Shown in pieces: positions 13,461 through 13,491 of a DNA stretch of 64,000 nt. Each line of letters opens with the position of its first letter. Positions within the stretch are counted from its first letter, which is position 1. The notes below the pieces were generated by a model. The model saw nothing but the letters and a program-made list of their open reading frames with translations, did not search any database and was not told the DNA's origin. Source of the stretch: an uncultured Clostridia bacterium (GTDB taxonomy: Bacteria; Bacillota; Clostridia; TANB77; CAG-508); assembly GCA_934133175.1 (NCBI GenBank), contig CAKPAX010000002.1, positions 18,022 to 82,021 of the forward strand, in the 5' to 3' direction. The translations under genes were made by a program, and so were the position numbers.

Positions 13461-13491
13461 GTTGTCAAAAAACTACGTCCCCATTGACAAC
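13461..13491. repeat. 31-bp palindromic element GTTGTCAA-aaaactacgtcccca-TTGACAAC, copy 1
   Basis: Perfect 8-bp inverted arms around a 15-nt spacer. The same element recurs at 54220-54260. Confidence 0.8.

What the first reader, a model, noticed from the sequence alone, without database searches (positions are those of the whole stretch)
13461..13491. Conserved 31-bp palindromic element (GTTGTCAA-N15-TTGACAAC) present twice, both times beside sporulation genes
Copy 1 lies in the divergent region between the suf-operon regulator and the cotF-like pair. Copy 2 (54220-54260) lies between dfrA and splB. The 15-nt spacer (aaaactacgtcccca, unusually GC-rich) is identical in both copies. This argues against a simple dyad operator, where spacers drift. 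It favours a sequence-specific site for a sporulation regulator or recombinase, an 8-bp-stem RNA hairpin with a conserved loop, or a small repeat family. The right arm also reads as a consensus -35 (TTGACA).
Basis: seen in the sequence. Interest (0 to 1): 0.55.

Follow-up and report, generated by a model that had tools for sequence, protein, structure and literature searches.

The report
Mobile palindromic repeat of a domesticated transposase
The 31-bp palindrome is not a sporulation control site but one copy of a small dispersed DNA hairpin repeat (REP-like element) that belongs to a single-copy tyrosine transposase gene found elsewhere in these uncultured gut Clostridia, a known kind of system in a little-studied host.

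Summary
An exact 29-mer (GTTGTCAAAAAACTACGTCCCCATTGACA) occurs at 13461-13489 and 54220-54248. Copy 1 is really a 16-bp-stem palindrome (13453-13499). Copy 2 carries a strain-specific 10-bp tandem duplication.

The sporulation reading does not hold. The element is a repeat family: at least 16 copies in the nearest reference MAG, and more in related gut Clostridia from human, sheep, rabbit and chicken. Nearly all copies are intergenic, often 3-20 nt after a stop codon, next to ordinary housekeeping genes. At the copy-1 site it is polymorphic between strains: absent, single, tandemly doubled or inverted.

In six lineages a 225-aa Y1/HUH protein is flanked by inverted copies of the element. This protein scores above threshold for NCBIfam "REP-associated tyrosine transposase", and its best structural match is the E. 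coli RAYT-REP complex 4ER8. The element's sequence and stem co-vary with the protein lineage. One paralogue sits exactly at the copy-1 site in some strains.

The protein is of the TIRYT / Group 1 / subclass 2.1 type. The conserved "loop" GGGGACG resembles the TIRYT repeat motif GGGGWSAS.

Verdict: a new member of a known kind, of modest interest. Mobilisation by the transposase is inferred, not shown.

The parts
13453..13499 (.). REP-like element, copy 1, full local palindrome (16-bp stem plus 15-nt conserved 'loop'). It lies between the DtxR-like repressor / sufCBD operon (- strand) and the 57-aa + Coat_F genes (+ strand).
   Evidence: Sequence. ssDNA fold -13.9 kcal/mol, z = -7.7 on either strand. 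Covariance-model hit 59.1 bits. Between strains the site is absent, single, tandemly doubled or inverted. In L049/L050 a RAYT paralogue sits at this exact site, and homology to the window ends at 13452.
13461..13468 (+). Family-wide left arm GTTGTCAA of copy 1
   Evidence: TGTCAA is invariant in 40 distinct copies, and the two outer pairs co-vary with the right arm. The invariance was partly imposed by the search pattern.
13469..13483 (+). Conserved asymmetric 'loop' AAAACTACGTCCCCA. Its 3' part CGTCCCCA (GGGGACG on the other strand) is the family signature. Its 5' part varies between sub-families.
   Evidence: Alignment. Lineage-specific variants. It resembles the TIRYT repeat motif GGGGWSAS (PMC3733652; PMC6006769).
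13484..13491 (+). Family-wide right arm TTGACAAC of copy 1. It contains a TTGACA hexamer that has no matching -10.
   Evidence: The promoter scan finds no + strand promoter here.
54220..54260 (+). REP-like element, copy 2. It lies in the 3' untranslated region of thyA-dfrA (genes on the - strand), starting 3 nt after the dfrA stop codon and ending 10 nt upstream of the intrinsic-terminator-like hairpin at 54171-54209. splB lies downstream.
   Evidence: Covariance-model hit 53.3 bits. The orthologous copy in L037 and L057-L061 has no duplication.
54239..54258 (+). 10-bp tandem duplication (CCCATTGACA twice) of the right end of copy 2, specific to this strain
   Evidence: It is one instance of a recurrent one-sided feature: 11 of 55 copies have an extra ATTGAC downstream, against 2 of 55 upstream and a 0.7% background.

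Best explanation
The 31-mer is one unit of a REP-like (repetitive extragenic palindrome) family. The family belongs to a domesticated single-copy Y1/HUH tyrosine transposase (RAYT) of the TIRYT / Group 1 / TnpA-Y1 subclass 2.1 type. The host is a low-GC (about 25%) uncultured gut Clostridia species.

The transposase gene is not in the window. In the nearest reference genome it sits between a VanW-family gene and a radical-SAM/TRAM methylthiotransferase gene. There it is bracketed by two inverted copies of exactly this element.

Proposed mechanism, inferred from what is established for E. coli TnpA-REP and for IS608/ISDra2:
- The element folds into a hairpin when single-stranded, for example on the lagging-strand template.
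- The Y1 enzyme recognises the stem together with the conserved GGGGACG tract.
- It nicks and rejoins the DNA through a phosphotyrosine intermediate.
- Copies are thereby excised, inserted, duplicated or inverted in intergenic DNA. They are tolerated mainly just downstream of stop codons.

On this view the two window copies are passengers of that process, not regulators of the neighbouring sporulation genes.

Shown here: the repeat family, its association and co-variation with the transposase gene, conservation of the hairpin, polymorphism between strains, and the orientation bias.

Inferred: catalysis by this protein, the single-stranded DNA intermediate, and any effect on neighbouring transcripts.
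For: 1. Repeat family. A genome-collection scan gave 45 strict matches in 34 loci, nearly all in uncultured Clostridia MAGs: 16 in CAKPIA, 14 in CAKPMJ, and others from sheep, rabbit and chicken. Nearly all are intergenic. In about 20 loci the element lies within 20 nt of a stop codon.

2. Transposase link. L024:6446-7123(-) encodes a 225-aa protein:
- Pfam Y1_Tnp, E = 6.4e-13.
- NCBIfam NF047646 REP-associated tyrosine transposase, 83.3 bits against a cut-off of 80.
- PDB sequence hit 4ER8, with the HUH motif (H-A-H) and the Y-x3-NP tyrosine motif aligned.
- Best fold match also 4ER8.
Inverted copies of the element flank this gene.

3. Same arrangement in six protein lineages: P0002 (100%), P0021 (77%), P0045 (71%), P0069 (69%), P0085 (67%) and P0119 (68%). 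Each has its own repeat variant, including compensatory stem changes: GTTGTCAA/TTGACAAC, TGTGTCAA/TTGACACA and TGCCAA/TTGGCA. Formal pair counting gives a covariation score of 0.155 against a shuffled 0.100, with 0 of 500 shuffles as high; slid controls are lower.

4. Each gene sits at a fixed locus in independent assemblies. This is how RAYTs behave, not insertion sequences.

5. Strain dynamics at the copy-1 site: absent (L003), doubled (L002), inverted with extra DNA (L008), and a loop SNP. The P0021 paralogue lies at exactly this site.

6. Strand bias. In 34 of 37 singleton copies the same reading lies on the C-rich strand, p about 1e-7.

7. The neighbours are ordinary housekeeping genes.

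8. The protein is far closer to TIRYTs than to canonical RAYTs: gbm_2474 2e-34 and dau_2153 9e-33, against E. coli 1e-7 (sequences from PMC3733652 Additional file 5).

9. Copy number fits Group 1 RAYTs, whose flanking 16-mers occur about 12 times per replicon and which are reported in Clostridia (PMC5581495).
Against: - No transposase gene lies in the window itself (tblastn). The link rests on the nearest reference MAG (97-98% nucleotide identity to the window over shared loci) and on metagenome contigs.
- No biochemical or population evidence shows that this protein moves the element.
- The canonical 5' GT[AG]G foot of REPs is missing. GTAG occurs only inside the loop, and only in some sub-families.
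- A 15-nt conserved loop is atypical for REPs.
- No transposase gene was found near the strict matches in CAKPMJ (14 copies). Several of those copies were spread by duplication of pilin-like paralogues together with their upstream region.
- The strand bias is confounded with gene orientation and with non-independent copies.
- Part of the apparent core conservation was imposed by the search pattern.
- The L003 'empty' site is not a clean excision: 21 unrelated nucleotides replace about 85.
Confidence: 0.85

Rival explanations
1. Operator or regulon site for a transcription factor, for example a sporulation regulator such as SpoIIID or Spo0A, or the adjacent DtxR-like repressor. The factor would bind the two TTGTCAA/TTGACAA half-sites.
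For: The element is a palindrome with half-sites about two helical turns apart. It lies next to Coat_F and SplB genes in the window. A TTGACA hexamer sits in the right arm.
Against: The copy-1 site is empty, doubled or inverted in strains of the same species, while the flanking genes stay intact. Most copies lie just after stop codons of unrelated housekeeping genes. The conserved part is asymmetric. The regulator's own perfect promoter lies outside the element.
Confidence: 0.03
2. The element is primarily an RNA element: a hairpin in 3' or 5' untranslated regions that stabilises upstream mRNA, blocks exonucleases, or presents a C-rich or G-rich loop to a partner RNA or protein.
For: Many copies lie 3-20 nt after stop codons, in one orientation relative to the gene. 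Copy 2 sits inside the thyA-dfrA 3' untranslated region, ahead of the terminator. REPs in E. coli are reported to affect mRNA stability (background section of PMC6006769).
Against: The 8-bp A/U-rich stem with a 15-nt loop is weak (-6.5 to -8.1 kcal/mol for copy 2 as DNA). There is no Rfam match. It is not terminator-like. Inverted dimers and both orientations flank the transposase gene. This reading does not explain the co-variation with a DNA enzyme. It could be a secondary, co-opted effect.
Confidence: 0.06
3. The two direct copies, 40.8 kb apart, are attachment or recombination sites that bound an integrated or sporulation-excised element.
For: The copies are direct repeats in the same orientation. 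Serine recombinase genes occur near the copy-1 neighbourhood in some strains (L006, L049).
Against: Dozens of further copies exist elsewhere. Both sides of each copy are syntenic in other strains (L008 spans 9859-16267 and L037 spans 48981-55403). The interval has uniform composition and carries a tRNA and core genes.
Confidence: 0.01
4. The element is a generic MITE or a target hairpin used by some other mobile element, and its position beside the Y1 gene is coincidental.
For: In a sheep MAG the 27-bp core is embedded in hairpin elements about 300-450 bp long, with 84-155-nt inverted arms. Partial tandem duplications are common.
Against: Six diverged Y1 lineages at different loci each carry their own matching variant on both sides. 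No other transposase is recurrently adjacent. There were no hits in viral contigs.
Confidence: 0.05

Closest known systems
TIRtron / TIRYT systems (Di Nocera et al. 2013, PMC3733652). These correspond to TnpA-Y1 subclass 2.1 (Quentin et al. 2018, PMC6006769) and to Group 1 RAYTs (Bertels et al. 2017, PMC5581495).
   Same: - The protein is 32-35% identical over the whole core to TIRYTs of Geobacter and Desulforudis (E = 1e-33), against E = 1e-7 for E. coli RAYT.
- It shares the N-terminal MPRxPR...HVxQxG signature.
- It has a C-terminal helical, HTH-like extension.
- The gene is bracketed by inverted repeats containing GGGGAC (published TIRYT motif: GGGGWSAS).
- The repeat family is moderately abundant, at tens of copies, as reported for Group 1 (about 12 occurrences).
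- Group 1 RAYTs are reported in Clostridia.
   Different: - The flanking repeat here is itself a short, clean hairpin whose stem co-varies. Quentin et al. found no REP-like secondary structures near subclass 2.1 genes.
- The motif matches GGGGWSAS at only 6 of 8 positions.
- The host is an uncultured, very AT-rich gut clostridial lineage.
Canonical REP/REPIN-RAYT (REPtron) systems of Enterobacteria and Pseudomonas (E. coli TnpA-REP, PDB 4ER8)
   Same: - A single-copy Y1/HUH gene at a fixed locus, flanked by inverted palindromic repeats.
- The same repeats are dispersed in extragenic DNA, often after stop codons, sometimes as inverted dimers.
- Sub-families pair with particular protein lineages.
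- 4ER8 is the best structural match.
- The protein scores above threshold for the NCBIfam REP-associated tyrosine transposase model.
   Different: - There is no GT[AG]G tetranucleotide at the foot of the hairpin.
- The conserved information lies in a 15-nt 'loop' and not in a long bulged G+C-rich stem.
- There are tens of copies, not hundreds.
- The protein is 60 aa longer, with a C-terminal HTH-like tail.
CGTC-tagged REPs (Di Nocera et al. 2013)
   Same: The element contains an invariant CGTC followed by C-rich sequence, an 8-bp stem that starts with A/T pairs, and dispersed intergenic copies.
   Different: - CGTC lies inside the loop, not at the terminus.
- The loop is 15 nt, not 4-5 nt.
- The published CGTC families had no associated transposase. 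This family does.
IS200/IS605 insertion sequences (IS608, ISDra2)
   Same: They share the Y1/HUH fold and hairpin-shaped DNA recognition sites. They also show strand-biased behaviour linked to the lagging-strand template (PMC6006769).
   Different: The gene here is not multicopy or mobile as a unit. The two flanks are the same sequence inverted, not distinct left and right ends. The score against the NCBIfam IS200 model is only 25 bits, against a cut-off of 55.

Membership tests
REP/REPIN-RAYT (REPtron) | Short palindromic unit present in many dispersed, mostly extragenic copies | tested here: met
   45 strict matches in 34 loci, including 16 in the nearest reference MAG. All but one are intergenic. 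There are only 2 in the 64-kb window.
REP/REPIN-RAYT (REPtron) | A Y1/HUH tyrosine transposase gene bracketed by inverted copies of the same repeat | tested here: met
   L024, L045-L050, L054-L056 and L062-L065. No such gene lies in the window itself.
REP/REPIN-RAYT (REPtron) | Catalytic HUH motif and the class 2 tyrosine signature Y-x3-NP | tested here: met
   N-H-A-H-M-L and Y-I-Y-D-N-P are invariant in 17 homologues and align to H59/H61 and Y115 of 4ER8. The signature is defined in PMC6006769.
REP/REPIN-RAYT (REPtron) | Gene at a fixed chromosomal locus in low copy number, each repeat sub-family paired with its own gene | tested here: inconclusive
   Each lineage shows the same neighbours in independent assemblies, and the repeat variants track the lineages. 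Copy number per complete genome could not be counted because only MAG fragments were available.
REP/REPIN-RAYT (REPtron) | Conserved 5' GT[AG]G tetranucleotide at the foot of the hairpin | tested here: not met
   The foot is (A/T)AG|TTGTCAA. GTAG occurs only inside the loop of the ACTACG sub-family and is absent from the GGAACG and TCTCCG sub-families.
REP/REPIN-RAYT (REPtron) | Inverted dimers (REPIN/BIME) | tested here: met
   Head-to-head pairs 7-25 nt apart occur in L012, L015, L025, L027, L035 and L039. There are none in the window.
REP/REPIN-RAYT (REPtron) | The protein binds and cleaves the repeat as single-stranded DNA | not testable with these tools
   This needs purified protein and oligonucleotides.
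TIRYT / TnpA-Y1 subclass 2.1 / Group 1 RAYT | Protein sequence groups with TIRYTs, not with canonical RAYTs | tested here: met
   BLASTP against sequences from Di Nocera's Additional file 5: the main-group TIRYTs tested score 1e-21 to 2e-34, while canonical RAYTs score 1e-7 to 2.5e-13. The Acidobacteria-group TIRYT aba_3477 scores only 1e-8. No phylogeny was made.
TIRYT / TnpA-Y1 subclass 2.1 / Group 1 RAYT | C-terminal helix-turn-helix-like extension | tested here: inconclusive
   Residues 162-224 are predicted helical with pLDDT 80-94, and the tail YNISLRKI..GRETIRK.Y is conserved. Only sub-threshold Pfam hits were found: HTH_11, HTH_19 and Sigma70_r4, E = 0.007-0.05.
TIRYT / TnpA-Y1 subclass 2.1 / Group 1 RAYT | Flanking inverted repeats carrying GGGGWSAS | tested here: inconclusive
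   The repeats read GGGGACGT or GGGGACGG, which matches 6 of 8 positions.
CGTC-tagged REP | Terminal CGTC, 8-9-bp stem, 4-5-nt loop, CCA tail | tested here: not met
   CGTC is internal and the loop is 15 nt.
Dyad operator of a (sporulation) regulon | Fixed position relative to the promoters of functionally related genes, conserved at orthologous loci | tested here: not met
   The element is polymorphic at the orthologous site. Its neighbours are functionally unrelated. Most copies follow stop codons.
Intrinsic terminator | G+C-rich stem with a short loop, followed by a T-run | tested here: not met
   There are no terminator-like hits at either copy. The terminator-like hairpin near copy 2 is a separate structure at 54171-54209.

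The most novel reading that the evidence does not exclude
This may be the first clearly defined hairpin-forming, co-evolving REP population tied to a TIRYT / subclass 2.1 Y1 protein, a class for which published searches found no REP-like structures. It would also be the first in Firmicutes. It would define a different recognition mode. The enzyme, possibly through its C-terminal HTH, would read a conserved GGGGACG tract inside a 15-nt loop together with TTGACA-type stems, and not a GTAG foot. The one-sided partial duplications ending in ...TTGAC(A) would then mark the cleavage and rejoining point.
Probability: 0.3. Interest if true: 0.5.

Novelty: new member of a known kind. Interest (0 to 1): 0.3.

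Why it matters
- It removes a false lead. The palindrome is not a sporulation cis-element, so it should not be used to infer a regulon.
- It adds a well-resolved example of a REP-like population and its cognate Y1 gene in uncultured, very AT-rich gut Clostridia. REP/RAYT biology is almost unexplored in this phylum.
- The protein class involved (Group 1 / subclass 2.1 / TIRYT) has only a loosely described DNA partner.
- Many strains are available in metagenomes, and the copy-1 site shows four different states. The family could therefore serve as a natural system for watching REP turnover, and as a strain marker.
- REP copies mark breakpoints of local rearrangement between strains. For example, homology to the window ends at 13452 in L049.

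Tried and rejected
- **Operator and promoter readings.** Promoter and terminator scans at both copies found only consensus matches, none needed to explain the data. By eye, sigma-54, ECF, SpoIIID/Spo0A, Rex, parS and dif motifs do not fit.
- **RNA family.** Rfam at gathering thresholds over the whole window and a permissive scan at copy 1 gave only meaningless microRNA-type hits far below threshold.
- **Phage origin.** A scan of viral contigs gave 0 hits.
- **Attachment sites of a 40-kb island.** Rejected by synteny across each copy and by uniform composition.
- **REP-REP recombination for the 1.6-kb pilin-like cassette.** The cassette is present in L037 and absent from the window. I first read this as recombination between two direct copies. 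The junctions instead lie in a GAAAA microhomology about 15 nt downstream of each copy. I therefore withdrew that reading. It is an indel that carries one gene plus its own downstream copy.
- **Clean empty site for target-site analysis.** L003 lacks the element, but 21 unrelated nucleotides replace about 85. No target duplication or insertion site could be defined.
- **Exact-protein look-ups.** Look-ups for dfrA and splB found nothing. The dCMP deaminase look-up worked instead.
- **Transposase near the CAKPMJ copies.** None was found within the fetched loci.

Full report
**1. The observation**

The window carries GTTGTCAAAAAACTACGTCCCCATTGACAAC at 13461-13491. At 54220-54250 it carries the same sequence with one mismatch, caused by a duplication described below. 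The two places share an exact 29-mer, and the 15-nt spacer is identical.

The arms alone would not be significant. With up to 3 mismatches, 11 of 100 shuffles gave two hits. An exact 29-mer shared within 64 kb is far beyond chance; by my own arithmetic about 1e-8 is expected.

Copy 1 is in fact a 47-nt palindrome (13453-13499) with a 16-bp stem. As ssDNA it folds at -13.9 kcal/mol with z = -7.7.

Copy 2 has a 10-bp tandem duplication of CCCATTGACA (54239-54258). This pushes the perfect right arm to 54253-54260. Five other strains have the clean 31-mer 3 nt after the dfrA stop codon.

A covariance model scored with filters off finds no further copy in the window.

**2. Context in the window**

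The window has about 25% G+C with strongly negative GC skew, and most genes lie on the - strand.

Copy 1 lies between two divergent units. On the - strand are a DtxR-type repressor (12859-13317) and sufC/B/D. On the + strand are a 57-aa gene and a Coat_F gene. The repressor has its own perfect TTGACA-17-TATAAT promoter at 13378-13350, outside the element. The element's TTGACA has no -10 partner.

Copy 2 lies on the transcript of thyA-dfrA, just after the dfrA stop codon. It ends 10 nt upstream of a terminator-like hairpin (54171-54209), and splB follows.

**3. The element is unstable between strains**

Ten contigs encode the identical repressor and are about 97% identical in DNA to the window. 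At the copy-1 site they show several states:
- one copy, with a T/C SNP in the loop;
- two tandem copies (L002; 41-nt unit);
- no copy (L003);
- a copy of a sister sub-family in the opposite orientation with about 110 bp of extra DNA (L008).

A fixed operator for the neighbouring genes would not behave like this.

**4. The element is a dispersed repeat family**

I scanned one genome per species with TTGTCAA-N(4-10)-ACGTCCCCATTGAC. This returned 45 matches in 34 loci. Nearly all are in uncultured Clostridia MAGs from human, sheep, rabbit and chicken guts:
- 16 in CAKPIA. This MAG is 97-98% identical to the window over shared loci, so it is the same or the nearest species.
- 14 in CAKPMJ.

All but one match are intergenic. 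The typical position is 3-20 nt after a stop codon, with GTCAATGGGGACG... reading on the gene's sense strand. Some copies form head-to-head dimers a few nucleotides apart.

In CAKPIA the flanking genes are adenylosuccinate lyase, an FtsX permease, DapA, Wzy, an FAD oxidoreductase, CTP synthase, GtrA, GGGtGRT, LDH, ribosomal protein S18, a mini-RNase III, YgjP and DUF2442. There is no sporulation theme.

**5. The partner gene**

In CAKPIA, one 225-aa gene (L024:6446-7123, - strand) is bracketed by two inverted copies of exactly the window's 31-mer. The evidence on the protein is:
- Pfam Y1_Tnp, E = 6.4e-13.
- NCBIfam NF047646 "REP-associated tyrosine transposase", 83.3 bits against a cut-off of 80. 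It scores only 25 bits, against a cut-off of 55, for the IS200 model.
- It aligns to E. coli TnpA-REP (4ER8) with the HUH motif and the catalytic tyrosine (YIYDNPVKAG) in register.
- An AlphaFold model (mean pLDDT 72) has 4ER8 as its best PDB match, followed by the IS608 and ISDra2 transposases.

There are 1,728 homologues in the protein collection. I fetched six lineages, at 100, 77, 71, 69, 68 and 67% identity. Each sits at its own fixed locus in independent assemblies. Each is flanked upstream and downstream by inverted copies of a lineage-specific variant:
- GTTGTCAA...ACTACGTCCCCA...TTGACAAC
- GTTGTCAA...ATCTACGTCCC...TTGACAG
- TGTGTCAA...TCTCCGTCCCCA...TTGACACA
- GTTGTCAA...TCTCCGTCCCCA(T/C)TGACAA
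- TGCCAA...TCCGT(C/T)CCCA...TTGGCA

The last three include compensatory changes on both arms. On 40 distinct copies the outer stem pairs co-vary (GC 12 / AU 8 / UA 4, and UA 22 / GC 5 / UG 5). The covariation score is 0.155 against 0.100 in shuffles, with 0 of 500 shuffles as high, and it is higher than in all slid controls.

The 77% paralogue sits exactly at the copy-1 site, next to the 57-aa and Coat_F genes. Homology to the window ends at 13452, the edge of the palindrome.

The window itself encodes no such protein.

**6. Which kind of Y1 system**

I compared the protein by BLASTP with the sequences in Di Nocera et al.'s Additional file 5. It is much closer to the main group of 'TIRYT' proteins than to canonical RAYTs:
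- Geobacter gbm_2474: 2e-34
- Desulforudis dau_2153: 9e-33
- E. coli RAYT: 1e-7
- Pseudomonas RAYT: 2.5e-13

According to Quentin et al. 2018, TIRYTs correspond to TnpA-Y1 subclass 2.1 and to Bertels' Group 1 RAYTs. They describe this class as carrying a C-terminal HTH-like extension. Its flanking inverted repeats share GGGG[AT][CG]A[CG]. They report no identifiable REP-like hairpins near these genes.

Bertels et al. 2017 report that Group 1 also occurs in Clostridia, with flanking 16-mers present about 12 times per replicon.

The present protein has a conserved, confidently helical C-terminal tail. Pfam gives only sub-threshold HTH hits for it. The repeat reads GGGGACG(T/G), and the family has 16 or more copies. 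Unlike the published description, the repeat here is a clean hairpin whose stem co-varies.

**7. Mechanism**

Established for the family (background and discussion sections of PMC6006769):
- Y1/HUH enzymes act on single-stranded DNA hairpins.
- They cleave through a phosphotyrosine intermediate.
- E. coli TnpA-REP cleaves and rejoins REPs.
- IS608 and ISDra2 use the lagging-strand template.

Inferred here: the same chemistry applied to this element produces the gains, losses, inversions and duplications seen between strains.

Consistent with a strand-specific process, 34 of 37 singleton copies have the TGTCAA...CGTCCCC reading on the C-rich strand, p about 1e-7. This bias is confounded with gene orientation, and some copies are not independent.

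One unexplained feature may be a footprint of the reaction. Partial tandem duplications of 6 to 41 nt, always ending in ...TTGAC(A), occur on the CCCCATTGACA side only. An extra ATTGAC lies downstream in 11 of 55 copies, upstream in 2 of 55, and in 0.7% of background windows. The window's copy 2 is one example.

**8. Rivals**

- **A regulator's operator** is contradicted by the polymorphism, the post-stop-codon positions and the unrelated neighbours.
- **A primary RNA role** is not excluded as a side effect. Copy 2 is transcribed with thyA-dfrA if the downstream terminator is the operon's end. However, the stem is weak, there is no Rfam relative, and this reading would not explain co-variation with a DNA enzyme.
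- **Attachment sites of a 40-kb island** are excluded by synteny across each copy.
- **A generic MITE unrelated to the Y1 gene** is unlikely, given six independent gene-repeat pairings.

**9. Verdict**

The element is a REP-like repeat of a TIRYT / Group 1 RAYT system. This is a new member of a known kind in a little-studied host.

One feature is mildly interesting to specialists: a hairpin REP with a conserved GGGGACG loop for a protein class said to lack REP-like partners. Mobilisation by the protein remains to be shown.

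Noticed in passing
window 26657-31372 (-); repeats at 27449-29391: Three 807-bp tandem repeats (84-87% identical) lie inside one 1571-aa ORF. The ORF therefore encodes three consecutive AAA+ ATPase modules (SpoVK/CbxX-like by eye) followed by an FtsH-like peptidase tail.
   Followed up: partly
window 62183-63923: Two copies of a roughly 1.2-kb unit, 1215 bp apart and 73-77% identical. This is probably a tandem gene duplication.
   Followed up: no
L006:149-1339; L049:1-741; L050:1-1081 (region orthologous to window about 14900-15500): In some strains a large serine recombinase gene (Recombinase + Zn_ribbon_recom) replaces the second half of the M14 peptidase locus next to the cotF-like genes. 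In the window this locus appears as two ORFs (14112-14768 and 14929-15393). It may be an intervening or integrated element in a sporulation-associated peptidase gene.
   Followed up: no
L037:5276-6775 compared with window 54206-54248: A 499-aa protein with a type IV pilin-like N-terminus, together with its own downstream REP copy, lies between dfrA and splB in the reference MAG. It is absent from the window and from five other strains. The junctions fall in a GAAAA microhomology about 15 nt from the REP copies.
   Followed up: partly
L014, L042, L028, L032, L038, L013, L026 (MAG CAKPMJ): In a sister species many copies of the element lie 30-140 nt upstream of paralogous genes for secreted proteins with a pilin-like N-methyl N-terminus; one of them, the only one scanned, also hits a dockerin domain. 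The conserved flanks show that gene duplication spread these copies, so copy counts overstate transposition there.
   Followed up: partly
L029:1915-2220; L036:1459-1906; L031:1027-1405 (sheep jejunum MAG JAFWKV): The 27-bp core is embedded in much larger, near-perfect hairpin elements with inverted arms of 84-155 nt around a 138-183-nt centre. This is a REPIN- or MITE-like elaboration of the same core.
   Followed up: partly
C-terminus of P0069 (residues 193-224) and homologues: The conserved C-terminal tail gives a sub-threshold match to Sigma-70 region 4 (E = 0.007), the domain that reads TTGACA. The arms of the element are TTGACA/TGTCAA. This is possibly a coincidence.
   Followed up: no
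L051:3715-3760; L062:3245-3290: Directly downstream of the RAYT-REP unit in two lineages, the sequence looks by eye like the 3' end of a tmRNA or tRNA-like gene on the opposite strand (TGGTGGAGATGAGG.GAGTCG.AC). Two different lineages therefore share this neighbour.
   Followed up: no
L015 and L018: Two strict matches fall in MAGs labelled Saccharibacteria and Prevotella. L018 lies inside a 609-aa ORF in G+C-rich DNA and looks like a chance or unrelated match. L015 is AT-rich and has an inverted dimer, so it is probably a mis-binned clostridial contig.
   Followed up: no
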